Origin: Elsinoe ampelina
Lineage: Eukaryota
Direction: 5' to 3'
DNA length: 64,000 bases
NCBI GenBank assembly: GCA_010093995.1
Contig: ML992503.1
Coordinates: forward strand, 180,984-244,983
Made by a program: the position numbers and the translations under genes. How positions within the stretch are numbered: position 1 is the stretch's first letter; the number at the start of each line of letters is the position of its first letter. This document shows, piece after piece, positions 37,001 to 64,000 of this stretch. The notes under the pieces were generated by a model. That model made no database searches and had not been told where the DNA came from. It saw only the letters and a list, made by a program, of their open reading frames with translations.

Positions 37001-37244
37001 ACCTTCTTTAGTAAATCTATAAGCAAAGCCGAACGTAACTACGTAATCTATAACAAGGAGCTATTAGTAATCGTCTAAGCCTTTAAGGAATAGGCCTTTA
37101 AGCTTATAAGTACTTAATCCGATAAGGCTATTTACGTCCTTACTAACTACTAATCCTTAATACATTTTATAAAGACTTAGAAGCTATTACGCCGCTAAGC
37201 GCGCTAGGCTCTCTACCTTACGTAGTTTAACTTTAAAATTATAT

Positions 37245-40200: not shown

Positions 40201-43200
40201 ACTAGATTAAAGAAACACTCGAATTTCCTAAGTATAATTATAGAACGTAGAGAGTATAATTAGCTCTATAGATACTAACTATAAGGACAGTATAGGTACG
40301 ACTAATAGTTAGGGCTATCGCTAGCGTAAGTAATTAAGCACTTCTACCGGAATATAAAGACTTTAAGGACTTATTTATAGAAAGAGAAGGTATTATAGCC
40401 TTACTCTAATATAAACTATAGAATTACGAAATACCTTTTAAAGAAGGTAAATCCCTAATACACTATTAAGGTCTAATACTACTATCGAAATAAGAGAAGA
40501 ACGTCCTTAAGAACTATATCGACAAGTACTTACTTAAAGGATTTATACGACTATTAAAATCACCTATTACACACGGAGTGCTTTTCGTATCTAAGAAGAA
40601 TAGGACGTTACAAATATGCATTAATTACTAGAAACTTAATATACTTACCTAGAAGAATTACTATTCTCTACCTAGAATTAACAAACTCTAAGACTAACTA
40701 CTTAGAGCTAAATAGTTTACTGTAATTAATATTAGAGATGCCTATTATTAAGTATAAATAAAGGAGGGTAAGGAGTAGAAAACGGCTTTTAAGACATAAT
40801 AGAGTCTATATAAATACCTTGTTATACTCTTTAGGTTAACTAACACTCCTATAACCTTCTAAGAGTTAATTAATAACACTCTATAAGAATACCTTAACAA
40901 CTTTGTCTTAGTATATCTAGATAATATTATTATCTTCTTAAAGATGTATAATAAACATATAGGACATGTTTATAAAGTACTACAAAAACTAAAAGAGAAA
41001 GACTTACTAGTAAAACTCTCTAAGTGTAAGTTCTATAAGCATAAGATACAATTTCTAGGCTATGTTATATCTACTAATAGCATCGGACCTAATCTAAAGA
41101 AGATTAAGTTAGTAAACGACTAGCCGGAACCTATAATAGTTAAGGAGATTTAAGCGCTACTAGAGTTCTTTAACTACTACTATAAGTTTATTAAGGGATT
41201 CTCCGAAGTAGCTATACTAATATCTAACCTTACAAAAAAGAAAACTAGCTTTATCTTTAACAAAAAATGTAAGTAGGCCTTTAAGGAGCTAAAGCTTAGA
41301 CTTATAATAGTACCTGTCCTAGCACTCTTTAACCTAGACTAATAAGCACTACTAGAAATAGATACCTTGGACTTTGTAATAGAAGTGTATCTAGTGTAGA
41401 AAGACATATAGGGACGACGCTACTTAATTATATACTACTTACGAAAAATGACTAGGCTTAAACTTAACTATAACATATATAACAAAGAATTACTTATAAT
41501 TATAGAAGTATTCCGCGAATAGTATATATATCTAGAAGAAACAACCTTACCTATATAAGTCTATACCGACTATAAGAACCTATTATATTAGACAATAACT
41601 AAGGTTCTTAATAGACAATAGGTTTAATAGTTAGAAACACTTACGAGCTATAACTTTTAGATCTACTATGTTAAGGGATTAGAGAATAGTAGAGTAGACG
41701 CTCTTAGCTAATAACTAGACTACTTAAAGAATATAACAATAATAGAGGCCTCTATACTAAAGTAGCAAGACAGCGCTTTAGTCTATAAGCACCTAAAGGT
41801 AGAGTAATTATATAGCCTTACCTAGAAGCTTACGTAAGAACAGAAAAAAGAAGTTATTTAAATATACTATAATAACTTAACTACGGGACATAGCGGGATT
41901 AATAAGACTATTAAACTTATTACACGAAACTACCTATAGAAAGAACTCTAAAACGATATTAAGACGTACGTCGCTATATGCGATATATGCTATAAGTCTA
42001 AGTACTTACGACATAAGCTATATAGCCTACTATAACTCTTACTACTACTAGATAAGCTATAGTAATCAGTTATAATAGACTTTATAGGACCTCTACTACT
42101 ATTAGAAGAACCTCTTATAGGTGTAAAGTATAATAGCATTTTAGTCCTAGTAGATAGATTTATAAAGTATTACTACTTTATACTATATAAGATAATAGTA
42201 ACTACCGAGGATATAGCCTTTATCTTTCTTCGAATAATTGTTTTATAATATAGAGTACTACGAGACCTAATAACTAATAGGGATAAGCTATTTATATTAC
42301 AATTCTAGTAATTATTTGTAGATCTACTAGAAGTTAAATATAAGCTATTGACCTTCTTTTATCTATAAACGGATAGACAAACCGAATAGGCAAATTAAGT
42401 ACTAGAGTAGTACCTATAATGCTACCTAAACTACAAGTAAGACTTATAGGCGACACTATTACTACTTACGGAGCTTACTATTAATAATAGAAAGTCTGCA
42501 AATAGAGTTTTACTATTCTATATAAACTATAGAATATACCTAGATCTATACTACGACATACTTAGAATTAAGCTAGTATCTAAGGACACTAATATACTAG
42601 TTACTAACATTAAGAAACTATATAACTAGCTATACTATAATATAGCATTTATATTATAAAGAATAGTAGAATTTACTAACTAGAAGAGAATTGTAAGACT
42701 AATTCTAAAGGAGAGAGAGAAAGTTTACCTTCTTAGTAAAAACATTAAAACGAAATAACTAAGTAAGAAACTTAACTATACTAAACTAGAACTCTTTAGG
42801 ATCCTAGAAAAGAAAAACAAGAACGTATATAAACTAGAACTACCGAGACATATAAGGATCTATCTAGTCTTTTATATATTACTACTAGAGAAAGTACTAT
42901 AGAACGCTATACCTAGACCTATCGAACTAGACGAAGAAATATAGGAGCTATAGTATAAGATCGAAAGGATTTTACATTATAAACTTATAAAAGGAAAACG
43001 CTACTATCTTATTTACTAGAAGGAATATTAGTATAGCGAAGTAACATAGGAACTAGAGAAATACCTTACCTTATAAGTAATCCTAGATTACTAAATCAAA
43101 AACCTATCCTAAGTAAACTAACTAGGTAGGCCCGACGCTACTACTACTAAATAAAAACGAGAACGCCCTAGAAAGACTACTTAGCCGATAGAAGTACTCT

Positions 43201-44267
43201 AATTATTGCCGAATAGAGAACCCTAGTCGGAGTTAGGCATAAATAATCGCTAGTCCTATAGTAGAATAGGATCTACCGACGATAGTATTTCCTTCTACTT
43301 TAAGACTTAAATATAAGTCTCCTTTAAAGAGATTACTTCCTCTACCTTGTCCTCTAACTTTTATATCTCTTTACGTAGGTAAAGCTTATTACCTATAGCT
43401 CTTTAATAAGCCTCTTTTGCCTTTTTATAAGCTTCTTTAGCTTCCTTTCTAGTAGCCTTAGCTATAACTAATTCCTTTCGTAAACGAATATACTTAGACT
43501 AGAGACGCTACTATTCCGATTTTGTTATCTAAATATTATAACTAGAGTAGTTACTTACGACATACTAGCTATAGATACCCGACCGAATATAGACCTTATA
43601 GTCTAGCCCCTTCGATTTGCAACGAGAATAAGCCTATAGCATATTAGTTCTAAATAGTTTAATAAACTTCGAGAGATTCTTTTATATAGATATACTAGAT
43701 TTACTATGCCTTCGACAACTAGGAGGTATATTTAGTACATAGCGCGTAAAGATAGAAAAGAATACTTACTCGTTAGAATAACTTAATTAAAGAAGAAGAG
43801 TAATGTTATAAACTAGTAGGACAAGCTAGAGCGTAGAGACGTTAGGACTAATTAAACTACTAAGGTTATTACGTAACTTAGCCCGATATTTACCTAGTAC
43901 TCTATCTTCTCTAGTAGCTCTACCTTAGAGACTATAGAGTATATAGGTTACTAGCGGACGTGTACTTTATCTTCTCTAGTAGCTCTACTATAGAGTACGT
44001 AGAGCATATAAGGTATATAGTAAAGAACACATGTATATAGGAATAGTTCTTACCTTATGTAAGTACTATAGTTAACCTCGTCTAGATAGCGAACACTAGT
44101 ATTACTAAGGCTAGCCTTTATAATACTATCTAATTGTACTTTATTATCTATAAGATATACCTTCTTTAACTCTTACCTTAGTACTATACTACTATAGAAG
44201 TAGAACTACCTTGTTCTTAGCTTAGCTTAGACTACTAATGTAGGCTATGTTTAGACATTTCGTGACA
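37245..44267 (+). mobile_element. Gypsy C (Ty3/gypsy chromovirus, RIPed), full length 7,023 bp; 464-bp LTRs at 37245-37708 and 43804-44267; TSD TATAT
   Basis: LTR ends TGTTA(C)(G)AA...TTCGT(A/G)ACA. Removing the element restores the gypsy B frame FKIIYRP. Protease A(M)ID(S)GA near 39,940; RT VYLD(D)II near 40,915; chromodomain Y(E)IERIL...(W)K(G)Y...T(W)E(P)E near 42,955-43,060. Confidence 0.95.
43181..43729 (-). pseudogene. RIPed antisense accessory ORF in gypsy C (Cys6 Zn-binding-like motif plus coiled coil, ~183 codons)
   Basis: A single frame reads A(C)SRCKSKGLD(C)KV(H)IRSGI(C)(G)(Q)(C)...S(C)(D)I.ITKSE(W).RL...RLRKEL...ARKEAKEA. All internal stops are TAA/TAG, consistent with RIP. Confidence 0.7.
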
Positions 44268-47200
44268 TATATATAGGCCTAGCGCTACTAATAGCAAGGC
44301 CGACGCACTTATAAGGAGAAATAGAGACGTACTACGTTCGAAGGAAGACCCTAATCTACGCTAGACGCTATTACTATATAAAGTGCTAGATTAGCGTATT
44401 ATTAACGAACTAAATCTAGGTCGTATCTAAGCTAGATTATCGATCTAGGCTAAACTAAGATCTAGTTTAGCACCTATTTCGCTGCCTATTTCGGCTCGCG
44501 AGCTAGGCACCTATATAGCACCTATCTCCGCTATAGAAGAGCCTTTACTCCTTTTCGACAAAGTAGCTAAAGCTAACTTATAAGACTCTAACTTTAAGAC
44601 AGTTCGTAGCGTCTACTATATAATAGAAGCCTTTCTAAAGAGGAAATAGTTACTATCGACTAATATTATAATTAAGAAGGGGATACTATACGCTACTAGC
44701 TAATTAATCGTGCCTTTCTCTATAGCTGTAAAAGTCATCTAAGAAGTCTATATATTAAGGAATTACACACACGGAGGGGCTACTAAGATAGCTACTATAA
44801 TTAAGTCTACTTTCTATATCCCCGAGTACGATTCTAACGTTAAGAGGTTCGTCGCTAACTATTATAACTATAAGCGCTTAAAGGCTCGCTATAGCTTACT
44901 AGCTAGCCTTCTATCGCTATTACCTATTCCGGTTAGGCCCTAGTAATATATCACTATAGACTTCGTTACTAGCCTACCTCTAGTAGATAGCTATAACGTA
45001 GTACTATATGTTATTAATCGCTTATCTAAGGAACGACACTTAATCTCTTACTTCTAGGGAGAAGAAGGAACCTCTACATTTAAGATAGCTAAGCTATTAT
45101 TCTTCTATATATAGAAACTACATAGCCTACTAGATAGTATTACTTTAGATTATAGCCCTTAGTTCGTTAGCGACGTATAGAAGAGACTCTACTAAATCCT
45201 AAAGATTACTACTAAACTATCTACTATAGGGCATCTATAGATAGATAGCTAATTAGAGGTTATAAATCGTAAGTTTAAGTAAGTTATCTATTTATACGCT
45301 ACATGCTTTAGTAATTAGACCCTTATTCTACTAGTTACAAAGTTCTCCGCTAACGTTAACTTATTAGAGAGCACTAAGCTATCACTATTCGAGGTTACTA
45401 GAGGATATAAGCTAAGGCTAAGCTTCTAACTCTCTTCCGACGTACTATTAACAAGAGCTAAGCTAAATAAGATCGACATCTACGCACTTACTAAACAACT
45501 AAAAGAAGCGCTAGTTATTACTAAAGCTAACCTTGCTATTACCTAATCGCGTATAGTAGAACAAGCTAATAAGCACCGCTAGCTAATAGAGTTCGAGGTA
45601 AGCGATTTAGTATAGTTATTAACAAAGAACCTCCGGCTATATAGTAATCTAAAGCTACTACTAAAACATATTAGTCTATATAAGATCCTCGAGAAGTAGT
45701 TACCGTTAGTATATAAGCTAGATCTACTAGCTACGCTATAACGAATCTACTTTGTGTTTTACGCTAATCTACTTACTAAGTATCTAAATAACTCTCTACT
45801 AGGCTAAGCCTTTAAGGAACTACCTCCGATAGAAGTCGATAGTAAAGAGAAATACAAGGTAGACAACGTAGTTAATATACATATACTACGCGGTAAACTA
45901 GTTACTTATATAAGCTAGAAGAGCTATCCGGAGGATCTTACCTAGTGGCTAATTAACAATCTTAAAGGAGTAGCTAACGTGCTACGTAACTATCTAGACT
46001 CTTACACGGATAAGCTAAGGCTAAAATAGATTAATAAATAATGTATAATAGCGTTTAAGAGTAAACGCGCTTAAGAGAGGAAGTAGTAATACGAGATAGA
46101 TACGAACTAGATTTAGTTAGGATATAGTTTAGATTAGTTATGTAATCTTAGTATCGTAGTCTAGGCTTTCGGCTGCTTCGCCCTCGATATTACGCGTGCT
46201 TTATATACTAGCTTTTCTTCTTCTTCTTCTAAGTCTCGATATTTTAACAAATAGACATAATTAACCCCCTTGTCTTACTAGTCGTAATTAGCTAGTAATT
46301 AGTATAGTAAGGACATCTCGAGCGACTTTAGTAAGCTATAGAAAGTCTTTCTTGTTGTTCTTCTACTAATTAAGCACTTTAAATCCTAGTATACTCTAGA
46401 CTAGAAGGATATTAAGGTAGTTCTTACTCTTTTAATAAGTAGTTTAAGAACTCTCCTATTAATTCTAGATTACCAAGCTAATATTAGACTAGAAGCTAAA
46501 GCTTGTCTAGGGAGAGGTAAGCTATATAGGTAACTAAGGTTAATAGAACTAATTATCTTTATCTTTAAGTAGAGTTATAATACTTAGAGTCTTAGGTAGA
46601 CTATCTAGGAAAGGTAGTTTACTATTATAGCAACTAAGGTAGTTAAGAAATTACTTACGATACTTAGCCTTATTAGATTTCTCTTAGGTGTTATTCTATA
46701 ATATAATTAGCTTACTATAAGAATATATTTATAAGCTATAAACCTTATAGAGAGTTAGCTTTTACATAGGGTCTAAGACTATACTATAATTAAAGAGGTA
46801 CTCTCTCTTATTGTTAGTGTAATTATAGTACTTTAACAATTTATCTCGACTATACTCTACTATAAGTCTAACTACTTTAGACTAAGGCTTATTATTATCC
46901 CTCTCCTTGTCTATAGCGCTATTCTCTATCTTATTAAGGAAGTTAAATAGACAATTATACATTAACTAGATATATATAATTAGTAGGTAGCTAATAGTAC
47001 TTAACTAAGTAGTTACTACCTTAAAGTTCTTAAGTATCTTTATTACTAGCTTAAGGTGTAACTACTCTATACTATTAAGCTAAAGACGTTTAAGATCCTT
47101 ATAATCTAGATTACTAGTATTAGTGCTAACTAAGTTAGGTCCTATACTAGTAGAACTCTTTATCGTAATTTTCTATTTAAGCTATTTATCGATAAATAGT

Positions 47201-49134
47201 CTAAGCTTAAGACTATACTTATATATATTAAAGATTAAGTTCTACTATGTCTTAACGTCTTAAATAATAGCCTTACGCTCTCGAGGTATTAGAGCTTATT
47301 AAAGAGTTATAAACCTCTTAAAGCGTTAAGGTAATTAATTAATAGTAATATAAGTTATATAGAGCTAGGAATTAATTAGACTATAATTAAAAACTATAAT
47401 TAAAATACTAACTTTATAAAGTAAGTTTAGCACTAAAAGTTTAATAGAAATCTTTCTTAAGTACTGCCTTTTAAGCCTAGTAGCTTATTTATTCTCCTTA
47501 GTAGTCTTAAGGTCGAGGTACTTAATAATGTTCTATATAATAAGATTAATAATATATATAAGGCATAGAATAGTGTTTTCTTATATACTCTATATAATAC
47601 TTACTTACCTAAGAAGCCTTTATACTATCTTATATAATATATAGTTATTACTTATATTATTAGTAGTAATAGTAAGGAGTCTATCCTAGAGATTATAGTG
47701 CCGGAGTATCTATATAAGTTTAGTAGCTATATTATAGCCTATATATTAACTCTAAAGTAGTACTATATTTAATAATTGTTCCTAGAGCTACTATTAGGTA
47801 TTAATATAATAAGCTTTAATTATAATAAAGCCTAAATAATTGTTTATAGACTAGCTATTAAGGGCAATTAAGACCTTTATTGTCTTATTAAGATCTTATA
47901 ATAATATTTAATAGAGGTTTTTAAATTTGTTATTAAAGAGAGTAGCGAAGTAAGTATAGCTTAGTATAAATACTCCTAGGTATAGGAACTATATAAACTA
48001 TTAGAAGGATAGTTACTTAATAGTATAAAATAACTAATTATAGTCTACTACTATTCGAATAAGCTCTAAGTAGAATTAAGTAATTAAATATAAAAGAACA
48101 TTCTTCTAATTAATTACTAGACAACTTCGAAGCTATATAAGTACTTAGTCTACTAGATTATAGGCTAATTTCGTAACCTTAGTATAGGTCTTTATATCTC
48201 TATAATTGCTTATTACATTTATACCTTACTTTAATAGTAATAGGTAAGTAAGTATATTACTATACTATAAGTAGTAAATAAATAGACGTCTATTAGATAC
48301 TTATATAGCTTCTCTAAAGTGTGCCTATACTAATCTAGTTCTTAGTATTAAGTTCTAGTTTAGTAGGCTATACTCCTTAGAGAAGCTATAGCAAGATACC
48401 TATAGTGTTAAGTTCTACTACTATAGAAAGCTTTAAAGATCTACTTATTCCTTAGTAAGTATCGAAGGATTAAGCGTTAGACACTTAATAAGGTACCGTA
48501 GTATAGGCTAACTACCTCTATTATATTGTTATATAGTAAAGTAATAACTAGCTAGATCTTAGAGAATAGAGACTACTATAATTAGTAGAGTTAATAGAAA
48601 ATATAATTATAGATTAATTAGATTATTAAAATTCGCTATAGTAGAGTATAAAGGTTATATAACTTATATTATTAAATAGAAGTAGTATAGGTATTTATAA
48701 TAATACTATAACTTTTTAGCTAAATAAATTTAAAATGTTTAGATAAGTAATATATTTAAGTTTAGACTATTAGAAAGTCTTCTCTATAATTACTTTACGT
48801 AAGGCATTTAAAAACGCGCTAGTAGCTCTTAAGTAATTATAAATATTAATTACTAATAGAGTAGTTATAGAGTAGAGTAGAGTTAGGATTTTCTCTAGGT
48901 AACCTACCTCTACTCTAACTTACCTCTAGGCTTAGCTAACTCCCGCTAGAGTAGGTAGAGTTAGAGTTAGCTAAGCTAAGAGGTAGGTTAGGGTAGAGTT
49001 ATAAATTTTGTACTCTATAGGTTATTAGTAATACATAAAATAACAAAGTATAATTACTAATAATAGATTCTAATTACAAACTATATTCTCTAATACTACT
49101 ACTTATAGAATTATACTTTTAATCCCTATTATAT

Positions 49135-52100
49135 CTAGGCATTAGACATCTCCTTATTCTTAACCTTAGTAGTATTCTTATCCTCTATATTCTTATCCTT
49201 ATTCTTATTCTTATTATTATTATTACTATTAGTCTTAAGCTTAGAGTACTCTATAACCTTATTATTCTTATTCTTACTATCTAACTTATCTTTAACTTTT
49301 GTTAAGAATATAGCTCTCTCTAGATAGTTAGGCTAGGAAGTCACATAACCTATAGTTATATAATGCTAAGGCCTAGGGATTCATAAGCTGTTCTTTCTTC
49401 TAGTGGATAGACTCTTTAATTAATTAACTCGTCTATCACCTAACTAGTGTACGGATTAGTTCTATACAATACTTTACCCCTAAATGTGCCTTCTACTTAA
49501 TAGGTTATAAGCCCGGAGCTTATAGCACAAGTATAGAATTGTATATATAGCAGTTAGCCTACTACTTAAACAAAACAGAAGCGGAATTATAATATCCCTA
49601 CCGCCTTATAGTCAACTATCTAGATACCTTTAGTAAGCCTAGTAGACTGTACTATAAGTCGTAAAAGATTATACTACTTAGGACAACAAGCAGGAATAGT
49701 ACTTCTATTTAGTACAGGTTTAACTCCTGTAATTGTTCCACTATAGCTGCTGTTTATTAGCTAGATTAACTAAACATATTTAATTTATTAACTTTCTCTA
49801 AGGCCTAGCTAGCCTTATAGACAACTATTAACTAAAGGTTATTAACTGAACTTAACCTTTATCTATTTATTCGATTCTCTTCTCCTTAGAGAACTTAATT
49901 CCTAACTATAGAAGATTAGTCCTTATCTTTAAGAAGACTAGTTATTAAGCTTAATAGACTTAACTAGAGAGAATAGTTCTACTAGATAGAAATATACCTT
50001 ATAAGTAAGAATACCTTCTAGACTATTCATAGTTAGACTACCCCTTTAGTAACACTATTATCCAATAACACCTCTAGCTCCTTTTTAGTCCTACCTATTA
50101 AGTTAAAGGACTAGCAAAAGGCCAATGTAACTACTAAGTACTAGGTTGTCTAGTATATCTTATAAGATAACAAAGAGTTACTATATAAGGAAGAGCTTAC
50201 ATTAGAGTATTAGAGATTACTTAAGTCTAAGTACAAAACAAACCTTAAGGTAAGCGTAAGAGAGCTAGTTATCTAATTTATGAACTATAAGATAGATAAG
50301 CAGAATACTATTAATAAAGCTTAGTCCTACCTTACTAGCCTAGGAAGACAGATTACTATTGTCTACCTAGACAAGGGTTATTAGAGGGTAGTAGAGAGAT
50401 TATAGTAGCTTCTCTCTTCTCTTCCTAACGACTATAGGTTTACAAGGCAAGTAATTAAAGCAAGGGGATTAACTAACATAGATAAGGTCCTTCTTATTCT
50501 TAAGGAGGAAGAGAGACACCTTAGTAAGCATAAGATTGCTATGTTTACTAGGGGGAGACTAAATCAAGGACCTAGTAGAAGTATAAGCTACACATACATC
50601 CTCTGCTTATAGGCTAGTTATACTATAACTAGATGCCCTTAACTTTAAAGAGCATAGAGGCATGTTTAGCCTTCCTATAGGATTACTAAGAGCCTACTAA
50701 GGAGGAGAAGATCTCTATTAGCTTCTAATGATCTAATCACCCTTGTTAGGCATCTTACTAAGAAGGTTAATAGACTAGAAGCAGCATCTAAGTCAAAGAA
50801 AGGCAAAGCCTTTACTACTACTAAAGGCCGGTCCGAACCTTCCTCTCTAATCTTAACTCTACTACCTAAAGTTCTATCTAGTAAAGAGGAACTTAAGACT
50901 ACAGGCTCTATATTAGAGGTACAAGGTAAGCTTCTACATCATTAGTAGATGCTTAACTCTAGAGCATCTAACTATATAATAGACAAGCTAACTCTCTTTA
51001 GGGGCCTATTAAGCAAGATACATACTCGATAGATCTAGGTTAGGGGGGGTTACCTTTAGTTATAGTTAATAGAAACTGTAGTTATTAGGACTAAGAAGGG
51101 AGATAAGATAAAGGTATAAGCTCTTTATATACCTAATCTTAGTGTTAATTTAGTCTTCTATTGTAAGCTATGTACAGATTTAGGAGTTTCTAGAGTTCTT
51201 AATTCAAATTCTTTTCTTGTTCTTAATTTATAAAAGCAGCTACTACTTAAAGCTAGAATTCGAAGGGGGGTATATATTATCTAATCCCTCTTTAAGTAGT
51301 TAGCTAATCAAAAGCTATATTCTAGATCTAAGCCCGGCTTAATTCTAGATCTAGCTAATTAGGACATAGTATTCCTTGCTACTTAGCTAGTAATTATATT
51401 ACACACTAAGTATGCATATCTAACCTAGAATAAGTAATATAAGGATCTTATTGATTTAAGACCTAATAACTCTAACATAGAGTACTAACTCTAGCATAGG
51501 AGATTTGCTTACCTTAGAGTTAAGAAGCTTAGGGATCTTTATAAGGTTATAACCCTTAAGAAGCTTATTAATTTAAACTATAATTTGTTAATCCTATGTA
51601 AGGTCTATTCCTTAACAAAGATAAGGAATAGAAGAGGCAAAACTTTATAGAGAAGACTAGAGGTTCTTTAGCTTGTTTATACTAACATCTATAGCCTAAT
51701 TAAAGCAAGTAGGGAAGGATTTAGATACTTTCTAGAGCTTATAGATAGCTATTTAAGGATAACATAGATTATACTACTTAAGATAAGAGATAAAGCCCTA
51801 TAGAGGCTTATTAAGTAGAAGCTAAGGGTTAAGAAGGAAAGTAATGCCAAAGTCAAGGTCACTAGATTAGACAATGCTAGTAAGCTTAACAAGATCCTAA
51901 AGTAGTAGGAGCGCTAAGAAGGCATCTATTATATAACTACTAAGCTATATAATTTAATCTAGAATAGACTAGTAGAGAAAGGCATCTAAACCTTAGAGAA
52001 TGGCATAAGAGCAATGCTTAAGGACTTAAAGATGCTAAATAAGTTCTAGCCTAAAGCAGTTTAGGTAGATACATATCTAAGGAACAGGACAGTAACTAGA

Positions 52101-55100
52101 CCTATGATTAATAATAAGCAAGTTACACTAATTAAGGCCTATATAGGCATTAAGCTATTAGTTAATTACATTAGAGTCTAGAGCTACAAGGTATATACCT
52201 ATATAAACCTAAAGTCCCTTCCTATACATAGAAGAAAAGATAAGCTTATAGATAGAGGGAGAGTAGGAGTATTTCTTAGCTATATAGATAGAACTAATAG
52301 AATGTACAAGATATAGGCACCTAACAGGAAGGCAGTAATTATATTACTAAATGTTAAGTTCTCTAAATTTAAGAAAGGTAGGAATGTTAATCTTAGTATT
52401 AAGATTAGCACTACGAGCAATTAAGCACTAGTTAGGAGACTAATTAGTAGACTAACCTAGATCCGAGCCTAGCTTAATCCTAAGGTAGACTAATTAGATT
52501 AGCCTATTTAGTAAGAAGCGCCTATAGAGAGAATCTTCTTATATATTAAGATCCTAAGGGTTAACTCTATTAACCTTGTAGAATTCTAACGTAGAGAAGA
52601 GCTAATAGTTCAATCTATATTACCTAATTATACAGGTTAATCACTTAAGAGATTAAGAGATAAAGAATCTAATAATAAAGAGCCTAAGGTAAAGCATTAT
52701 AGAGCATTTATTGCTAAGTGTATTAATTAGTAAGATAAGGTTAATAAGATTACTATAATAGCCTCTGTTAAGTAATATGTCCTAATTCCAAGAGACTACT
52801 ATAAGGCTGTTACTAATCTAGTTTAGGAAAGCAAGTAGCAGAAAGCAATTAATATAGAGCTTAATACTCTAGGATTAAATAACACATAGGAAGAGGTTGT
52901 CCCTCTAAAAGGATTAAACTTAGTAACATCTAAGTAAGTCTTTAATGTTAAGTATAACATAGATAGCTCTATTAAGAAGTTTAAGGCTAGACTTATTACT
53001 AGAGGCTTCTTATAGAAGTATAGTATTAACTATAAAGACACATTTACACTAACAGTTAGAGTAGATACACTAAGACTGTTCTTTGCTATCGTGTATATAC
53101 TTGACCTTAAATGTCATTAGGTAGATGTTAATAATGCCTTTATAGAATTATTCCTTAGGGAAGTGATTTACATAAGGCTACTACCTAGACTTAAGGTCTA
53201 ACCTAGTATTGCCTTCTATATTCTTAGGAGCTTATATAGACTTAAGTAAGCTACTAGAGATTAGAATTAGCACTATATCTCTAAGCTTTTAAAGTTAGGC
53301 TTTACTTAGAGCAAAGTAGACCCTTGTCTTCTTATGCACTATAATAAGAAGATTATTCTCTTGGTTTATGTTAATAATATACCATTTGTAGCATAAAGCA
53401 AAGAGAACATCTAGTAGTTTAAGTAAGAGCTTAGTAAAATCTTTAAGATTAAGAATCTTAGTAAGGTTAGTAAAGTTCTTAGGGTTAAGGTCACAAGGGA
53501 CAGACAATAAGGAACTTTAAGGCTTAACTAGACCTACTATATAGATGATGTGTTATAGAGGCTTAATATGACCTCTAACAAGGCTACTCTAACAAAGCAG
53601 CTAATAGACAATAAGCTCCCTTAGAGAGCTTAGACTAAAGATATAAGGTTTAGTAGAACTAAGTACTTACATACTATTAGAAGCTAGATGTACCTTAGTA
53701 CCCTAATAAGACTAGACACTGCCTTTGCCTTAGGAAGGCTTAGTTAGTTTATAGCAGATCTAATAGACAGCTATACTATTAAGATAAAGAGGATATTAAG
53801 ATATATTAGATTAACTAAAGATCTTAGTATAGTGTTTAGAAGGAATAGTAATAAGACTCTTAAGGAATATTCTAATTTAGATTATACCTTAGATAAGACA
53901 GACAGAGTCTCTATTCTTAGATATGTCTTTATACTTACAGGTGGTCCTATTAGCTAGATAAGTAGGAAGTAGAAGTCTGTTTCAATCTCTACTATAGAGG
54001 CTAAATATATAGTAATATACTCTTATATAAAGAGATTACAGTTCCTATCTTAGTTACTAAGAGATATAGGCTGTTATAAGATAGTTAGTTAGTCACCTTA
54101 GAAACTAACTATAAAGGAGTCTTAGAAAGCAATAATAAGATTACCCTTTACTACTAAGATTAATAGTAATAATTAAGTAGCTCTTTTACTTGTAAAGGAG
54201 CTATATACTTATAAAAGGGCAAAGCACATTAATATTGCTTACTACTACCTTAGGAGGCTATAGAGAGACTAGAGGATATAGGTTAAGTTTGTAAGGATAG
54301 TAGACATAGTTACTAATAGATTAACTAAGCTGTTACAAGGCTAGAACTTTATAAGATTTATAAAGCAACTTAGCTTGTCATTAATCTAATAGCTCACCTA
54401 TAGGAGCTAAGTAGGAGTGTTAAGAATATAGCTCTCTCTAGATAGTTAGGCTAGAAAGTTACATGACCTATAGTTATATAATGCTAAGGCCTAGGGATTT
54501 ATAAGCTATTCTTTCTTCTAGTAGATAGACTCTTTAATTAATTAACTTGTCTATCACCTAACTAGTGTACGGATTAGTTCCATACAATACTCTACCCCTA
54601 AACGTGCCTTCTACTTAACAACTTTAACACCTAGATAATAATCCTTATTACTACTAGCTTCCTTATCTAATATTCTTTTAATCTTATTTTTATCCTTCTT
54701 AACCTTCTTCTTATACTTATTATTATTATCTCCTTTATAGTATAGTCTAGTACTATAGAGTTTAAGCTTAGAGATGTATTTATACTTAGGAGATAGAGGA
54801 ACGACTAGCCTGTATAATTGTTAGAATATACTATAATTAAAGACTATAATAAACTTACTACTAGTTAGGATTCTATAACACTACTAATTCTATAGGAGGG
54901 AGCTCTTTAAGCTACTTAAAAAAAATCTTATATGTCTACTTATTGTTAGTGTTATTAGTAATAAGGCTTATATAGCTATCCTAGTAAATTTTATACTATA
55001 GCTTCTCGATAATACTACTAGTACTATAGATATATATATAGGCTTATATTAGCTATTGTTTACCTTACTAATTTACTACTATATTATCTTAGATACGCTT

Positions 55101-55729
55101 AATAATCTTATTATACTCTTGCTTTTGTAGAGTCTTTCTAATACTAGTCTATTTCTTATAGGTCTATATAAATATAAATTTAAGTTACTCGCCTATAACG
55201 ATTAGTACTGCTATAATAGTATACTATAATAATAGACTTACTACTCCTCTATTTATTAAAGTGTTTCTCCTCTATATCTTTAATAGTATTATTAATTCTA
55301 ATATTCTACTCTTTAGTAGAGAGCTAATCCTACCTATTCTCTTTCTTAATCTTATTACGTAAAGTACTAATAGCTTTATAATCTACTACTTAAGTAGTAT
55401 AGAGGGCTTACTTCTTATATATACGCTAAGAAGTACAATCTCTCTACTTAATAGTATAAGCACTTTAACTTAGAGGTCTAGAGTGTCTAGCGATAAATCT
55501 AGTCTTATAGCTCCTTCTAGTTTAACTAGCGCTATACTAAGAGATCTAGTATTTAATTTCCTACTACTTAGAATTAAACCCCTAGTATTATTAGTAACTA
55601 TATATAATAAGAAACTATAATTAATACTTCTAATAATTCTCTTAGAATATTCTCCCTAGAGTCTTCTTCTTACTTAATTACTACCTACTCTTTCTACTCT
55701 ATCTTAATGTCTTCTATAGGTATAGACAT
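49135..55729 (-). pseudogene. RIPed multi-intron cargo gene of hAT-2 with a long Asp/Glu-rich C-terminus; split by copia D
   Basis: ATG at 55729. GTAAGT...CTAAT/CTAAC...AG introns near 55240-55195 and 54860-54810. The frame continues across the copia D TSD into AAT/AAG/GAT runs (RIPed GAT/GAG) and ends EMS(D)A* at 49135. Confidence 0.62.
49300..54620 (+). mobile_element. Copia D (Ty1/copia, RIPed), full length 5,321 bp; 203-bp LTRs at 49300-49502 and 54418-54620; TSD ACTTT
   Basis: Matching LTRs TGTTAAG...CTTAACA and TSD. PBS-like GGTTATAAGCCC; protease (W)ML(D)S(G)AS near 50,950; L(W)HRRFA(H)L near 51,490; RT RSLY(G)LK(Q)A and LLVYV(DD)I near 53,230-53,400. Confidence 0.95.
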
Positions 55730-56070
55730 TTAATTAAAGGTAATAAAAAGAGTATTTATAGTATATAAATTGTATATAAGGTAAGTAAAAGAGGTAAAGG
55801 TATAAAGGGAAAGTTAGAGTTAGAAATTTATAATTTATAAATGTATAAAATAATAAAAGAGAAGGCTAGGGTAAAGAATAAGAAAGCTATTGTTATATAA
55901 GTTATTTACTATTATCTTATTATTCTCTATTATTAATAGTAAATAGTACATCTAATAATAGGTTTTATATTTCTTACTCTAGCCTCTCCTTTTTACTATT
56001 TTATATATACTAAAATTTTACATACGAACTTTAACTTCTTAGCTATATATAAACAACCTCTTACTTTACT

Positions 56071-56597
56071 ATAGCATGCAAAAAAGGTTATCCTTAAGCT
56101 ACTACTAGTCCTAGAGAAAGAGGTTATAAAGAGAAGTAACCTACTATAAAGAAGACGCTATAATTCTAGACTAAGCCTAGAAAGAAGTAGAGATTTAAGC
56201 CCGGCAGTATTTATTACAGTTTCTAATTATAGAGCAGAACTAATAGAAGGTAGCTATCGCTCTCTATAAGATTTGTTACTACTAGAAGAATGTTTAATTA
56301 TTATTCCGTAAACTTCCCTTTTCTTGCCTTATCTATAAGATATTCTAAGATATATAGCTTACTCTTAAGGTCGATCGCTAGACAGCTAATATACTTAGAG
56401 CTCTCTAAGAATTAGTAGAGGCATTTATTATTAGATATATAGAAGGTATATACCTATTAAATATGTGTTAAAACCTTAATTAACACCTATTTATAGATAT
56501 AAACCTTAATGCTATCTATACTAAGTATATTACTATTAATTATAAGGACTCTAGCTTTACTAAGCGCTACTATTAGAAGTTTATAGTTAGTAGTTAG
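56071..56597 (+). pseudogene. RIP-inactivated histone H3 variant gene inside hAT-2; exons 56071-56206, 56254-56445 and 56497 to ~56597 (end uncertain)
   Basis: Literal spliced translation is RFKPG/TIALYKICYY*KNV*LLFRKLPFSCLIYKIF*D...R*TANILRAL*ELVEAFIIRYIE/DINLNAIYTKYITINYKD. Reversing only C>T and G>A changes gives RFKPGTVALREIR.YQK...RKLPFSRLVREI.QD...ALQE.AEAF...EDTNL.AIHAKR.TI..KD. Two GT-AG introns of 47 and 51 nt. Confidence 0.9.
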
Positions 56598-56999
56598 TTA
56601 AGGATTAGAGTTTTAGGTAGTAGCTTATACTAGAGAAATAGTATAGGTAGAGTAATAAATTTCTTTACTATAATAATATAATATAATAATACCTTAATTC
56701 TTCCTTAATATTAGTAATTAATGTTTATAATTACTTAGAGGCTACTAGCGTATTTTTAAATGCCTTATATAAAGTAATTATAGAGAAGACTTTCTAATAG
56801 TCTTAACTTAAATATATTACTTATCTAAACATTTTAAATTTGTTTAGCTAAAAAATTGTAGTATTATTATAAACACCTATACTACTTCTATTTAATAATA
56901 TAAGTTATATAACCTCTATACTCTACTATAGCAGATTCTAATAATCTAATCGATCTATAATTATATCTTCTATTAACTCTACTAATTATAGTAGTCTCT

Positions 57000-59610
57000 G
57001 TCCCCTAAGATCTAGCTAGTTATTGCTTTACTATATAACAACGTAATAGAGGTAGTTAGCCTATACTATAGTACCTTATTAAGTGTCTAACGCTTAATCC
57101 TTCGATACTTACTAAGGAATAAGTAGATCTTTAAAGCTTTCTATAGTAGTAGAACTTAACACTATAGGTATCTTGCTATAGCTTCTCTAAGGAGTATAGC
57201 CTACTAAACTAGAACTTAACACTAAGAACTAGATTAGTATAGGCATACTTTAGAGAAGCTATATAGGTATCTAATAGATGTTTATTTATTTACTACTTAT
57301 AGTATAGTAATATACTTACTTACCTATCGCTATTAAAGTAAGGTATAAATATAATAAGCAATTATAGAGATATAAAGACCTATACTAAGGTTACAAAATC
57401 GGTCTATAATCTAGTAGACTAAGTACTTATATAGCTTCGAAGTTGTCTAGTAATTAATTAAAAGAATATTCCTTTATATTTAATTACTTAATTCTACTTA
57501 GAGCTTGTTTAAATAGTAGTAGACTATAATTAGTTATTTTATTCTATCGAGCGACTATCCTTTTAATAGTTTATATAGTTCCTATACCTAGGAGTATTTA
57601 TACTAAGCTATACTTACTTCGCTACTCTCTTTAATAACGAATTTAAAAACCTCTATTAAACGTTATTATAAGATCTTAATAAGACAATAAAGGTCTTAAT
57701 TACTCTTAATAGCTAGTCTATAAATAATTATTTAAGCTTTATTATAATTAAAGCCCATTACATTAATAACTAATAGTAGCTCTAGAAACAATTATTAGAT
57801 ATAGTACTACTTCGGGGTTAATATATAAGCTATAATATAGCTACTAAACTCGTACGGACACTCCGGTACTATAATCTCTAGGATAGACTCCTTACTATTA
57901 CTACTAATAATACAAGTAACAACTATATATTACGTAAGATAGTATAAAGACTTCTTAGGTAGGTAAGTATTATATAGAGTATATAAGAAAATACTATTCT
58001 ATACCTTATATATATTATTAATCTTGTTATATAGGACATTATTAAGTACCTCGACCTTAAGACTACTAAGGAGAATAAATAAGCTACTAGGCTTAAAAGG
58101 CAGTACTTAAGAAAGATCTCTACTAAACTTTTAGTACTAAACTTGCTTTATAAGGTTAGTATTTTAATTATAGTTTTTAATTATAGTCTAATTAATTCCT
58201 AGCTCTATGTAACTTATATTACTATTAATTAATTACCTTAACGCTTTAAGAGGTTTATAACTCTTTAATAAGCTCTAATACCTCGAGAGCGTAAGGCTAT
58301 TATTTAAGACGTTAAGACATAGTAGAACTTAATCTTTAATATATATAAGTATAGTCTTAAGCTTAGACTATTTATCGATAAATAGCTTAAATAGAAGATT
58401 ATAATAAAGAGTTCTACTAGTATAAGACCTAACTTAGTTAGCACTAATACTAGTAATCTAGATTATAAGGATCTTAAACATCTTTAGCTTAATAGTATAG
58501 AGTAGTTATACCTTAAGCTAGTAATAAAGATACTTAAGAACTTTAAGGTAGTAACTACTTAGTTAAGTACTATTAGCTGCCTACTAATTATATATATCTA
58601 GTTAATGTATAATTATCTATTTAACTTCCTCGATAAGATAGAGAATAGCGCTATAGACAAGGAGAGGAATAATAATAAGCCTTAGCCTAAAGTAGTTAGA
58701 CTTATAGCAGAGTATAGTCGAGATAAATTGTTAAAGTACTATAATTATACTAACAATAAGAGAGAGTACCTCTTTAATTATAGTATAGTCTTAGACTCTA
58801 TATAAAAGCTAACTCCCTACGAGGTTTATAGCTTATAAATATATTCTTATAGTAAGCTAATTATATTATAGAATAATACCTAGGAGAAATCTAATAAGGC
58901 TAAGTATCGTAAGTAATTTCTTAACTACCTTAGTTGCTATAATAGTAAACTACCTTCCCTAGATAGTCTACCTAAGACCCTAAGTATTATAACTCTACTT
59001 AAAGATAAAGATAATTAGTTCTATTGACCTTAGTTACTTATATAGCTTACCTCTCCCTAGACAAGCTTTAGCTTCTAGTCTAACGTTAGCTTAGTAATCT
59101 AGGATTAATAAGAGAGTTCTTAAACTACTTATTAGAAGAGTAAGAACTACCTTAATATTCTTCTAGTCCGGAGTATACTAGGATTTAAAGTACTTAATTA
59201 GTAGAAGAATAACGAGAAAGACTTTCTATAGCTTACTAAAGTCGCTCGAGATGTCCTTACTATACTAATTACTAGCGTTAGTATCGAATGTATATTTAAT
59301 ATAGTAAAGAACATTATTAGTAATTAAAGACACTAACTCTCTATATAAACAATCTAGTAGCTTATAATTATAAAGCTTACAACTAGACTATCTCTATTAA
59401 GTAGTAATCCTATCGATAGTAGCTATATAGATAAGGCACTAGATAAGGTAGATAACTTATTTAACTTACCTACTTAAGAGAGTATATTTAATATAAGTAA
59501 CTACGAGAAAGATAGTAATAATAACAACTATAAGTCTCTAGTAAAGCGTATAAGATTATCTAGAAGAACATAGAATAACATTAAAATACAACGATTAAAC
59601 GTATAGAATA
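57000..59610 (+). pseudogene. RIPed hAT transposase (BED finger, DDE core, hAT dimerisation domain); ends approximate
   Basis: V(W)AYF...Y(C)L(Q)(C) BED finger near 57,235-57,310; DRLL(A)IT(AD)N(A)SN near 57,885; I(P)(C)L(AH)IINL near 57,995; (D)VKT(RW)N(S) near 58,310; F(PQ)L(A)KVARDVL...(V)E(RV)FN near 59,225-59,300. Confidence 0.9.
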
Positions 59611-59672
59611 CTATAATTAGAAACTATAATTAGTGCTATTTCTATCCTAAATAGATTGCAAATTATATATAT

Positions 59673-62600
59673 TGTTAAGCAGAAGGCACGTTTAGGGGTG
59701 GAATATTGTATAGAACTAATCGTACACTAGTTAGGTAATAGACGAGTTAATTAATTTAAAGGAGTCTATCTACTAGAAGAAAGAACAGCTATAAATCCCT
59801 AGGCCTTAGTATTATATAACTTAAAGTTATATAACTTTATAGCCTAATTATCTAGAGAGGGCTATATTCTTAACACTCCTACTTAGCTCCTATAGATAAG
59901 CTATTAGGTTAATAATAAGCTAAGTTACTTTATAAACCTTGTAAAGATCTAACCTTGTAATAGCTTAGTTAACCTATTAGCTACTATGTCTACTGTCCTT
60001 ACAAACTCTACTTAAATCCTCTAGTCCCTCTATAGCCTCCTAATATAGTAGTAAGCGACATTAATATACTTTGCCCTTTTATAAGTGTATAGCTCTTTTA
60101 TAAGTGAAAGAGCTACTTAGTTATTACTATTAATCCTAGTAGTAAAGGGTAATCTTATTATTGCTTTCTAAAATTCCTTTATAGTTAGCCTCTATAGTAA
60201 TTGCCTAACTATCTTATAACAGCCTATGTCTCTTAGTAACTAAGACAGGAACTGTAATCTCTTTATATAAGAGTATATTACTATGTATTTAGCCCCTATA
60301 GTAGAGGTTAAAACAGACTTCTACTTCCTACTTATCTAGCTAATAGAACTACCTACAAGTATAAAGACATATCTAAGGATAGAGACTCTATCTAACTTGT
60401 CTAAGGCATAGTCTAAATTAGAGTATCCCTTAAGGGTCTTATTTCTATTCCTTCTAAATATAATACTAAGATCTTTAGTTAATCTAATAGATCTTAACAT
60501 CTTCTTTATCTTAATAGTATAACTGTCTATTAGATCTGCTATGAACTAACTTAGCCTTCCTAAGGCAAAGGCAGTATCTAGCCTTGTTAGAGTGCTAAGG
60601 TATATCTAGCTTCTAATAGTATATAAGTACTTAGTTCTACTAAACCTTATATTATCTTCCTAAGCTCTTTAAGGGAGTTTATTATCTATTAGCTGCTTTA
60701 TTAGAGTAACCTTGTTAGAGGTTATATTAAGCCTCTATAGCATATTATCTACATAGTAGGTTTAATTAAGTCTTAAGGTGCTTTATTATCTGTCCCTTAT
60801 AACCTTAACCCTAAGAACTTTATTAACCTTACTAAGATCTTTAATCTTAAAGATCTTACTAAGTTCTTGCTTAAACTACTAGATATTCTTCTTGCTTTAT
60901 GCTGTAAATAGTATATTATTAATATAAACTAAGAGAATAATTCTCTTATTATAGTATATAAGAAGATAAGGGTCTACTTTGCTCTAAGTAAAGCCTAGCT
61001 TTAGGAGCTTAGAGATATAGTGCTAGTTCTAGTCTCTAGTAGCTTACTTAAGTCTATATAAGCTCCTTAGAATCCGGAAGGCAAATCTAGGACTAACCTT
61101 TAGTCTAGGTAGTAGCCTTATATAAATCCTTTTATAAAGAAAGAACTCTATAAAGGCGTTATTAATATCTACCTAGTAACACTTAAGGTTATATATACAA
61201 ACAATAGCAAAGAACAGCCTAAGTATGTCTACTCTAACTATTAGTATAAATATGTCTTCGTAGTTAATACTATACTTCTATAAGAAGCCTCTAGTAACTA
61301 GTCTAGCCTTAAACTTTTTAATAGAGCTATCTATATTGTACTTAACATTAAAGACCTATTTAGATGTTACTAAGTTAGATCCCTTTAGAGGAATAACCTT
61401 TTCCTATGTATTGTTTAAGTATAGAGTATTAAGCTCTATATTAATTGCTTTCTACTATTTACTTCCCTATACTAGATTAGTAATAGCCTTATAGTAGTCC
61501 CTTAGGATTAAGACATATTGCTTAATAGAGGCTATTATAGCAATCTTATTAACCTTATCTTGCTAATTAATGCACTTAGCAATAAAAGCTCTATAGTGCT
61601 TAGCTTTAGGGCCTTTATTATTAGAGTTATTATCTCTTAATCTCTTAAGTAATTAACTTATATAGTTAGTTAGTAAAGATTAAACTATTAGCTTTTCTCT
61701 ACGTTAGAAATCTACAAGGTTAATAGAGTTAACCCTTAGGATTTTAATATATAAGAAGATTCTCCCTATAGGTGCTTTATTCTAAATAGGCTAATTTAGT
61801 TAGTCTATCCTAGATCTAACCTTAGTTTGAATCTAAGTTAGTCTACTAACTAGTCTCCTAACTAGTGCTTAATTGCTTATAGTATTAATCCTAATACTAA
61901 GATTAATATTACTACCTTTCTTAAACTTAGAGAATTTAACATTTAGTAATACAATTACTATCTTTCTATTAGGTGCCTATATCTTGTATATCCTATTAGA
62001 TCTATCTATATAGCTAAGGAATACTCCTACTCTTCCTCTGTCTATAAGCTTGTCTTTTCTTCTATATATAGAAAGGGACTTTAGGTTTATATAGGTGTAT
62101 ACCTTATAGCTCTAGACCCTAATATAATTAACTAATAGCTTAATGCCTGTATAGGCCTTAATAGGTGTAACTTGCTTATTATTAATTATAGGTCCAGTTA
62201 CTGTCCTGTTCCTTAGATATGCATCTACCTAAACTGCTTTAGGCTAGAACTTATTTAGCATCTTTAAGTCCTTAAGTATTGCTCTTATACTATTCTTTAA
62301 GGTTTAGATACCTTTCTCTACTAGTCTATTCTAAATTGAATTATATAGCTTAGTAGTTATATAATAGATGCCTTCTTAGCGCTCTTACTACTTTAGGATC
62401 TTATTAAGTTTACTAGCATTGTCTAATCTAGTAACCTTAACCTTAGTATTACTCTCCTTCTTAACCCTTAGCTTCTACTTAATAAGCCTTTATAGGGCTT
62501 TATCTCTTGTCTTAAGTGGTATAATCTATATTATCCTTAAGTAGCTATCTATAAGCTTAAGGAAGTATCTAAATCCTTCCCTACTTACTTTAATAGGACT

Positions 62601-64000
62601 ATAGATATCTATATAGATAAGCTAAAGAACCTTAAGTCTTCTTTGTAAGGTTTTGCCTCTTCTATTCCTTATCTTTATAAGGGAATAAACCTTATATAGA
62701 ACAGATAGATTATAGTTTAGGTTAATAGGTTTCTTAAGAGTTATAACTTTATAAAGATCCCTAAGCTTCTTAATCCTAAGGTAAGTAAATCTCCTATACT
62801 AGAGCTAATACTCTATCTTAGAGTTATTAGGTCCTAAGTTAATAAGATTCTCTTATTACTTATCCTAGGTTAGATATACATACTTAGTCTATAATATAAT
62901 TATAGGCTAGGTAGTAAGGAATACTAAATCCTAATTAGCTAGATCTAGAATTAAGCTAGGCTTAGATCTAGAATGTAGCTTTTAATTAGCTAATTACTTA
63001 AAGAGGGATTAGATAATATATACCTCCCCTCGAATTCTAGCTTTAAGTAGTAGTTACTTCTACTAATTAAGGACAAGAAAAGAATTTAAATTAAGAACTC
63101 TAGAAACGCCTAAATCTACGCATAGGTTACAATAGGAGACTAAATTAATACTAAGATTAGGTATATAAAGAGCTTATATCTTTATCTTATCTCCCTTCTT
63201 AGTCTTAATAATTGTAGTTTCTATTAACTATAACTAAAGGTAACTCTCCCTAACCTAGATCTATTAAGTGCGAATCTTGCTTAATAGGCCCCTAAAGAGA
63301 GTTAGCTTGTCTATTATATAGTTAGATGCTCTAGAGTTAAGTATCTACTAATAATATAGAAGCTTACCTTAAACCTCTAATGTAAAACCTATAGTTTTAA
63401 GCTCTTTATCCCTAGATAGAACTTCTAGTAGTAGAGATAGAGATGTTAATAATAAACCTCTCTTAGTAGCTAGATAGGCTTTGCCTCTCCTTCTTGATTT
63501 AGCTACTTTAAGAGAGTCTATTCTCTTAGTAAGCTATCTTATAAGTTTAAGTAGTTCCTAGCGCTTAGGTAACTATCTCCTTATAGAGCTACTCCTTTTA
63601 GTAACTCTATAGGATAGCTAGATATACTTCTTAGCTTATTAGAGATAAGGACACCTTAACATAGAGTGTCTAGGTTCCTTATATAAGATATATATATAGT
63701 TTAAGCTCCTACTAGTTCCCTATTATAGTCTACCTCTTATAAACATAGTAGATTCCCCTTCTCCCTTCTATACTTTCTTTTCTTTAAGAATGTTATAGAT
63801 CTTATCTATACTAAGGTGTAGTTAAGCATCTAAGGTATCTCTTATAGTTAACTATAAAGCTAGAAGAGCACTAAGTAGTCTCTAAATTCTTGTTATTAGT
63901 AAGGAGTATTACTTAATCTTTAAAGATCTATTAATTCTCCTTCCTAACATAGTTAGGTATAACTAGGTATCTAAGATAGTTATATTATTACCTATAGTAT
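59673..64000 (-). mobile_element. Copia E (copia D family, opposite orientation, RIPed); 3' LTR at 59673-59875; 5' end outside the window
   Basis: The LTR and pol are reverse-complement homologues of copia D. Similarity falls off in gag beyond about 63,450. Confidence 0.92.

What the first reader, a model, noticed from the sequence alone, without database searches (positions are those of the whole stretch)
49135..55729. A second cargo gene, divergent from the H3 variant, has a long acidic tail: a possible histone-chaperone partner
Seen in sequence: a minus-strand multi-intron gene starts about 340 bp from the H3 start, head to head. It ends in roughly 80 codons that deRIP to mostly Asp/Glu, and it reads in frame across the copia D insertion. 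I recognise no domain in it. Established knowledge: acidic tails are typical of histone chaperones such as Nap1, Asf1 and nucleoplasmin, and histone genes are often divergently paired. Inference: the ~5.7-kb element is a three-gene system of transposase, H3 variant and acidic partner.
Basis: partly seen in the sequence, partly recalled or inferred. Interest (0 to 1): 0.78.

Follow-up and report, generated by a model that had tools for sequence, protein, structure and literature searches.

The report
RIP-killed partner gene of transposon histone
The second gene is real but dead: it is a mutation-riddled copy of the already published "central ORF of unknown function" that travels with a histone H3-like gene inside a hAT transposon of plant-pathogenic fungi, and its tail was indeed acidic before the mutations.

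Summary
After copia D is removed (49300-54625, with one copy of its 5-bp target duplication), a minus-strand four-exon model runs 55729 to 49135. Its three short introns restore one reading frame of 375 codons. It starts 342 bp from the H3-like gene, head to head. It reads in frame across the copia site and ends in a 90-residue K/N/D/E tail.

The window is heavily RIP-mutated, and the model carries 32 TAG/TAA stops, so this copy is a pseudogene.

The element is not new. Manning 2013 (PMC3538342) described a ~5.6-kb hAT element in Pyrenophora tritici-repentis. [quoted passage not shown] Its unmutated consensus is in a supplement of Dhillon 2019 (PMC6710886). Read by eye, it shows the same divergent pair, the same intron positions and a strongly acidic tail.

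No domain or homologue was found by Pfam, PDB or the large protein searches. A control showed that the large protein searches are insensitive on RIP-mutated translations.

The histone-chaperone idea remains untested. Verdict: a degraded new member of a known element.

The parts
48857..48873 (+). 17-bp terminal inverted repeat TAGAGTAGTTATAGAGT of the hAT copy that holds the gene
   Evidence: The only other exact copy in the window is at 32461, the far end of the neighbouring copy (2 exact among 12 matches at up to 3 mismatches; 1.5 expected). It sits exactly where homology between the two transposase arms stops.
48874..49134 (.). Subterminal region with GAGTAGAGTTAG-type repeats and a palindrome (48905-49001)
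49135..49299 (-). End of exon 4: last 54 codons of the K/N-rich (formerly acidic) tail plus the stop codon (49137-49135)
49300..54625 (+). copia D LTR retrotransposon with one copy of its ACTTT target duplication, inserted in exon 4
   Evidence: Absent from organism B, although B covers both flanks (table 2).
54626..54809 (-). Start of exon 4, including YYKGDNNNKYKKKV (54742-54701)
   Evidence: Matches the Ptr consensus read.
54810..54858 (-). Intron 3 (GTAAGTTTATTATAG...TTATACAG)
   Evidence: Across the exon 3/intron 3 boundary (last 8 exon bases plus the first 14 intron bases), 16 of 22 bases are identical to the Ptr consensus and 5 more are RIP-type changes (by eye).
54859..55192 (-). Exon 3, ending KELPPIELVVL*NPN**
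55193..55241 (-). Intron 2
55242..55581 (-). Exon 2 (contains S*SAYTIK*RDC and ENR*D*LSTK)
55582..55627 (-). Intron 1
55628..55729 (-). Exon 1 from the ATG at 55729
55730..56070 (.). Shared divergent upstream region with a palindrome at 55811-56037
56071..56564 (+). H3-like gene (H3L homologue), RIP-mutated, with introns
   Evidence: Pfam Histone E 0.0019, below the family cutoff. PDB histone H3 E 3.6e-10.
56709..59672 (+). hAT transposase region, cut at 59672 by a second, inverted copia
   Evidence: Pfam Dimer_Tnp_hAT E 4.7e-10 at about 59181-59375. Inverted repeat with 46291-48858, 95%.

Best explanation
The locus is a RIP-inactivated copy of the accessory gene of a known H3-carrying hAT transposon family.

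The gene has four exons on the minus strand (55729 to 49135, with copia D nested in exon 4). It is transcribed divergently from the element's H3-like gene. It is the homologue of the 'central ORF of unknown function' in the ~5.6-kb Pyrenophora tritici-repentis element.

Before RIP it encoded a protein of roughly 330-375 residues: a helical, partly basic body and a long Asp/Glu-rich C-terminal tail. RIP turned GAx codons into AAx, giving today's K/N tail, and created 32 stop codons. A copia then landed in the tail. In this genome the gene does nothing.

What the intact protein does in active relatives is not known. The conserved head-to-head pairing with the H3-like gene, seen in two element lineages, suggests the two are used together. 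This step is inferred.
For: 1. RIP. The block has TpA/ApT 1.7-2.0 and (CpA+TpG)/(ApC+GpT) 0.13-0.26. Differences between duplicate copies are mostly transitions: 125 against 3 transversions in the hAT arms, and 344 against 74 in the copia copies.

2. Element. There is a 17-bp TIR at 48857 and 32461, a hAT dimerisation domain and an H3-like gene. The estimated length is about 5.7 kb.

3. Published counterpart. [quoted passage not shown]

4. Ptr consensus, read by eye in the supplement of PMC6710886. It holds a minus-strand gene with three short introns, head to head with H3L, ending in a long acidic tail. Collinear matches to the window model:
- Tail: 14 positions = 5 identical + 8 RIP-compatible (D>N, S>N, E>K, C>Y) + 1 mismatch.
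- SGSARAIAQRER against S*SAYTIK*RDC: 5 identical + 4 RIP-compatible + 3 mismatches.
- EELTPDEMKVVTDNDWQ against KELPPIELVVL*NPN**: 5 identical + 5 RIP-compatible + 7 mismatches, with W and Q at the stops.
- All three intron 5' ends resemble the Ptr ones.

5. The three introns restore a single frame.

6. The family is multi-copy in two organism labels.
Against: - The homology to the Ptr gene was judged by eye. The supplement sequence could not be given to any alignment tool, so there is no score or E-value, and the tail is low-complexity.
- Every computed search on the gene was blank: Pfam on all six frames; PDB for two of the three minus frames; the 5.8-billion-protein word search for two frames; the full HMMER search for one frame.
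- The spliced frame (32 stops) has more stops than one of its off-phases (24).
- The order of genes differs from Ptr. Here the H3-like gene lies between this gene and the transposase. In Ptr this gene is the central one.
- No function is shown.
Confidence: 0.8

Rival explanations
1. The intact protein is a histone chaperone-like partner that binds the element's H3-like protein through its acidic tail.
For: The pre-RIP tail was acidic. The head-to-head pairing with the H3-like gene is kept in both the window element and the Ptr element, although the pair sits differently relative to the transposase.
Against: No similarity to any chaperone family in Pfam or PDB, though sensitivity is low on this copy. 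Acidic tails occur in many nuclear proteins. Manning 2013 gives no function.
Confidence: 0.15
2. The intact protein is a transposition accessory factor, for example a DNA-binding helper like the second ORF of PIF/Harbinger elements. It would not be cargo at all, and the H3-like gene would be the only captured host gene.
For: The gene is kept with the transposase in two lineages. In Ptr a short form fuses its N-terminus in frame to the transposase C-terminus and appears to be expressed. Read by eye, the Ptr protein has tryptophans spaced 13-17 residues apart (EKEW...AEW...RKW), which loosely recalls Myb/SANT-like repeats. That family resemblance is recalled, not tested.
Against: No Pfam DNA-binding domain was found in the window frames. 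hAT elements normally need only the transposase (established knowledge).
Confidence: 0.25
3. The element borders differ from the reader's. The gene pair belongs to the left transposase copy (32461-48856, minus strand), giving the Ptr gene order. The TIR-like stretch at 48857-49134 would then be a fragment or a rearrangement, and the right transposase arm a separate truncated copy.
For: Going left from the gene's stop one meets a minus-strand transposase, exactly the Ptr order. The summed length 32461-33086 + 46291-48856 + 2.5 kb is also about 5.7 kb.
Against: An exact 17-bp TIR sits precisely at the break in homology. No inverted TIR lies near 56708.
Confidence: 0.3
4. There is no gene. The open K/N frame is a purine-rich microsatellite kept open by RIP, and the by-eye matches are chance.
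For: An imperfect (AATAAG)n repeat lies at 49153-49237. Antisense and off frames are also open in this DNA. All computed homology searches were blank.
Against: The matches to the Ptr gene are collinear across four exons and three introns. The introns restore one frame, stops fall at Q and W positions, and the length is similar: about 1.27 kb here against roughly 1.24 kb in Ptr.
Confidence: 0.1

Closest known systems
~5.6-kb H3L-carrying hAT 'transduplication' element of Pyrenophora tritici-repentis (Manning et al. 2013, PMC3538342); consensus 'Ptr_cons' in the supplement of PMC6710886
   Same: - Length of about 5.6-5.7 kb.
- A hAT transposase with a dimerisation domain.
- An H3-like gene with an intron after ..K(P/A)GS and the RKLPFS motif.
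- A divergent multi-intron ORF with an acidic tail.
- Similar intron 5' ends.
- A transposase C-terminal motif (DLFELPA.. against NLFNLPT..), by eye.
   Different: - The window copy is destroyed by RIP and carries nested copia insertions.
- The TIR sequence differs (TAGAGTAG.. against TACGCTGG..).
- The gene pair is inverted relative to the transposase, if the borders are as read here.
- Ptr copies are nearly identical and expressed.
H3-carrying hAT family of Mycosphaerellaceae (Dhillon et al. 2019, PMC6710886)
   Same: A hAT element carrying an H3-like sequence, confined to AT-rich RIP-mutated blocks and present in hundreds of dead copies. Its TIR starts TAGAG in Cercospora zeae-maydis.
   Different: - Those elements are about 9.5 kb and carry 1-2 intron-less H3 retrocopies.
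- 'No other domains' are reported for them.
- None of the 6 window-derived motifs tried matched their termini or H3 regions; the one hit was a 10-mer elsewhere inside the Czm consensus.
- The paper states they are not similar to the Ptr element.
Histone chaperones with acidic tails (Nap1, Asf1, nucleoplasmin)
   Same: Only the acidic C-terminal tail.
   Different: No sequence match in Pfam or PDB. By eye, the body of the Ptr protein looks helical and basic rather than like those folds (recalled, not tested).

Membership tests
hAT superfamily element | Transposase with the hAT C-terminal dimerisation domain | tested here: met
   PF05699 E 4.7e-10, 39.6 bits against a cutoff of 21.4.
hAT superfamily element | Short TIRs and an 8-bp target duplication | tested here: inconclusive
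   A 17-bp terminal sequence occurs at one end of each of two copies. No copy has both ends in the window, so the inverted partner and the TSD could not be checked.
Ptr-type H3L hAT element (Manning 2013) | H3-like gene between the TIRs | tested here: met
   PDB H3 E 3.6e-10. Motifs shared with Ptr H3L by eye.
Ptr-type H3L hAT element (Manning 2013) | Third ORF ('central ORF') homologous to the Ptr one | tested here: inconclusive
   Collinear by-eye matches in four exons and three introns. No computed alignment was possible.
Ptr-type H3L hAT element (Manning 2013) | Gene order transposase - central ORF - H3L | tested here: not met
   With borders at 48857 the order is ORF - H3L - transposase. 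It is met only under the alternative border reading.
Histone chaperone (Nap1 / Asf1 / nucleoplasmin) | Family domain detectable by profile or sequence | tested here: not met
   No Pfam family at E up to 1 in any frame other than Histone. The best PDB hit had E 0.84 to an unrelated protein. Sensitivity is low on RIP-mutated sequence.
Histone chaperone (Nap1 / Asf1 / nucleoplasmin) | Binds H3-H4 | not testable with these tools
   The window copy is a pseudogene with 32 stops, and the intact Ptr protein is not a session sequence.

The most novel reading that the evidence does not exclude
The acidic-tailed ORF and the H3-like gene form a conserved transposon-borne histone and dedicated-partner module. 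It is kept as a head-to-head pair while its position in the element changes. Active elements would use it to build variant nucleosomes on, or shield, their own DNA.
Probability: 0.12. Interest if true: 0.7.

Novelty: new member of a known kind. Interest (0 to 1): 0.3.

Why it matters
The result links a RIP-destroyed repeat in this genome to the Pyrenophora H3L hAT element. It shows that the ORF/H3-like pair is an old, conserved part of that family rather than a one-off capture. It also gives a concrete hypothesis, an acidic partner of a transposon-borne H3, that can be tested on the intact Pyrenophora genes. For this genome itself the locus is inert repeat debris.

Tried and rejected
- Whole genome: not held. 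Earlier notes of the scan: none.
- Stop density and GC by codon phase did not identify the coding frames. They favoured frames that turned out wrong for exons 1-2.
- Protein searches with stop codons read as Q/W were all blank:
  - one minus-strand frame, 54909-55733 (full HMMER over 1.84 billion representatives, 0 hits at E up to 0.001);
  - a second minus-strand frame, 54901-55650.
- Control: the equally RIP-mutated transposase, which has a clear Pfam domain, also found nothing. These blanks therefore say little.
- PDB searches of two of the three minus-strand frames: nothing meaningful.
- H4-like reading of the divergent gene: considered by eye and dropped.
- Sequencing runs: no RNA holder listed. 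The one presumed RNA run laid gave no cover. No contig bridging the empty copia site was listed.
- Exact window motifs were not found at the termini or H3 regions of the Mycosphaerellaceae consensus sequences. One 10-mer matched elsewhere inside the Czm consensus.
- The intron motif TTATYAYAG is not enriched window-wide: 11 matches against 7.1 expected. Three of the 11 lie in the predicted introns on the right strand.
- Complex prediction and structure prediction were not used, because the only session sequence is a pseudogene.
- PDF supplements of Manning 2013 (Figure 5 details, Tables S5/S9) could not be seen.

Full report
**Setting**

Bases 28.5-64 kb of the window are an AT-rich block (GC 0.25-0.35) with strong RIP signatures. 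TpA/ApT is 1.7-2.0 and (CpA+TpG)/(ApC+GpT) is 0.13-0.26, against 0.54 and 1.29 in the GC-rich part. The block is a pile of nested transposons. No whole genome is held, and the scan had no earlier notes.

**Anatomy**

- **copia D** occupies 49300-54620. Its 201-bp LTRs are 95% alike, and it is flanked by the 5-bp duplication ACTTT.
- **Two hAT transposase regions** form an inverted repeat: 46291-48858 and 56709-59276, 95% complementary. The right one carries a Pfam hAT dimerisation domain, E 4.7e-10.
- **The left copy** is split by a 13-kb nested LTR element. That element's 207-bp LTRs lie at 33080-33286 and 46084-46290. The copy ends at 32461 with TAGAGTAGTTATAGAGT.
- **The same 17-mer** occurs, in the same orientation, only at 48857, exactly where arm homology stops.
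- **My reading:** 48857 is the left terminus of the right-hand copy. That copy runs through 2.5 kb of DNA unique in the window, then the transposase, and is cut at 59672 by a second copia.
- **Alternative border reading:** listed among the rivals.

**The gene**

- With copia D removed, a stop-free 118-codon minus-strand frame crosses the junction and ends at 49135.
- Its last 90 residues are K27, N19, D8, E4. Of the 46 K/N codons, 35 follow a T, the RIP context for GAx to AAx. In this window G-to-A changes also occur after A and G.
- Part of the tail is an imperfect hexamer repeat.
- Upstream, stop density misled me.
- A coherent model came only from the comparison below. The exons are 55729-55628, 55581-55242, 55192-54859, and 54809-54626 joined to 49299-49135. 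The introns are 46, 49 and 49 nt.
- Spliced, this gives 1125 nt in one frame, with 32 internal TAG/TAA codons in 374. This copy is a pseudogene.

**The neighbour**

- The plus-strand gene at 56071-56564 is a genuine H3 relative. PDB histone H3 scores E 3.6e-10. Pfam Histone scores E 0.0019, below the family cutoff.
- Its start codon is now ATA, 342 bp from the ATG at 55729.

**What is known**

- A full-text search led to Manning et al. 2013 (PMC3538342; passages read). [quoted passage not shown] It also has a 2.3-kb form in which the central ORF's N-terminus is fused to the transposase C-terminus.
- Dhillon et al. 2019 (PMC6710886; Results read, and passages from the Discussion) describe RIP-killed H3-carrying hAT elements in Mycosphaerellaceae. 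They report no other domains in them.
- A second search for later work on the Ptr element found only these papers and one that mentions the terms in passing.

**Comparison with the Ptr consensus**

The text supplement of PMC6710886 holds the unmutated Ptr consensus. I could not give it to any tool, so I read it by eye.

- **Ptr gene order:** TIR, transposase (minus strand), central ORF (minus strand, three short introns), then H3L (plus strand) head to head with the central ORF, then TIR.
- **Ptr tail:** the central ORF ends in about 85 residues rich in Asp/Glu.
- **Collinear matches to the window model**:

| Ptr consensus | Window | Identical | RIP-compatible | Mismatch |
|---|---|---|---|---|
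| ..IKLE..EQDEW.. | ..IKIE*KE*.. | not counted | not counted | not counted |
| SGSARAIAQRER | S*SAYTIK*RDC | 5 | 4 | 3 |
| EKEWDILSEK | ENR*D*LSTK | 5 | 1 | 4 |
| AEWLE | SE*LK | not counted | not counted | not counted |
| EELTPDEMKVVTDNDWQ | KELPPIELVVL*NPN** | 5 | 5 | 7 |
| YVKGDDSDECEEEV (tail) | YYKGDNNNKYKKKV | 5 | 8 | 1 |

- **Stops and tail:** window stops fall at Ptr Q and W positions. The tail match shows that the window's N and K were D and E there.
- **Introns:** all three intron 5' ends are similar. At the exon 3/intron 3 boundary, 16 of 22 bases are identical and 5 more are RIP-type changes.
- **Length:** the gene spans are alike, about 1.27 kb here against roughly 1.24 kb in Ptr.
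- **Other genes:** the H3-like genes share RKLPFS.., the intron after K(P/A)GS and KDS..(K/R)RY. The transposase C-termini also look alike.

**Conclusion on identity**

I conclude that the 'second cargo gene' is the RIP-killed homologue of the Ptr central ORF. The basis is visual, not statistical.

**Differences from Ptr**

- The terminal sequences differ.
- With my borders, the ORF/H3L pair is inverted relative to the transposase.

**Computed searches for function**

- Pfam on six frames found only Histone and the hAT domain.
- PDB searches gave nothing.
- The word-indexed and full HMMER protein searches gave nothing.
- The RIP-mutated transposase control also gave nothing, so these blanks are weak.

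**Population data**

- Contigs of public runs show the family is multi-copy in two organism labels. Differences among copies are transition-dominated.
- copia D is absent from the second organism, although both flanks are covered.

**Mechanism**

- **Shown:** a dead accessory gene of a known transposon family, acidic-tailed before RIP.
- **Inferred:** the conserved divergent pairing suggests joint use with H3L.
- **Open:** whether the intact protein is a histone-binding partner (about 0.15), a transposition accessory factor (about 0.25) or something else. This must be tested on the intact Pyrenophora gene.

**Verdict**

The kind of element is already published. Interest is modest.

Noticed in passing
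window 33087-46290: A 13-kb LTR element with 207-bp LTRs (33080-33286 / 46084-46290, 90%) is nested in the left hAT copy. It holds a further LTR pair at 37242-37541 / 43801-44100.
   Followed up: partly
window 59673-64000: A second, inverted copy of the copia element (89% to copia D over 3650 nt) interrupts the right hAT copy at 59672 and runs off the window.
   Followed up: partly
window 55811-56037: An imperfect palindrome of about 230 bp (71%) fills much of the region between the two divergent start codons. Its role is unknown.
   Followed up: no
window 54844-54852, 55224-55232 (minus), 56211-56219 (plus): Each predicted intron 2 and 3 of the ORF, and the first intron of the H3-like gene, holds TTATTA(T/C)AG. 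In the Ptr consensus every intron of both genes carries TTATCACAG, often twice (by eye). The motif is not enriched window-wide. A shared intron motif in two unrelated genes of one transposon is odd.
   Followed up: partly
window 54572-56039 vs 56040-59700: Summed contig depth over the ORF region is several times that over the H3-like gene and much of the transposase, in both organisms (table 2). This may reflect short non-autonomous derivatives like the 2.3-kb Ptr form, but such depth is not a copy number.
   Followed up: no
PMC6710886 supplement 2, Czm_cons: By eye, the Cercospora zeae-maydis element consensus holds an acidic stretch (..GEDESKDESEDDKG..) a few hundred bases upstream of its H3-like sequence. 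It also holds a stretch resembling an SNF2-type helicase motif (..GGILIDKIDLGKT..). The paper reports no other domains.
   Followed up: no
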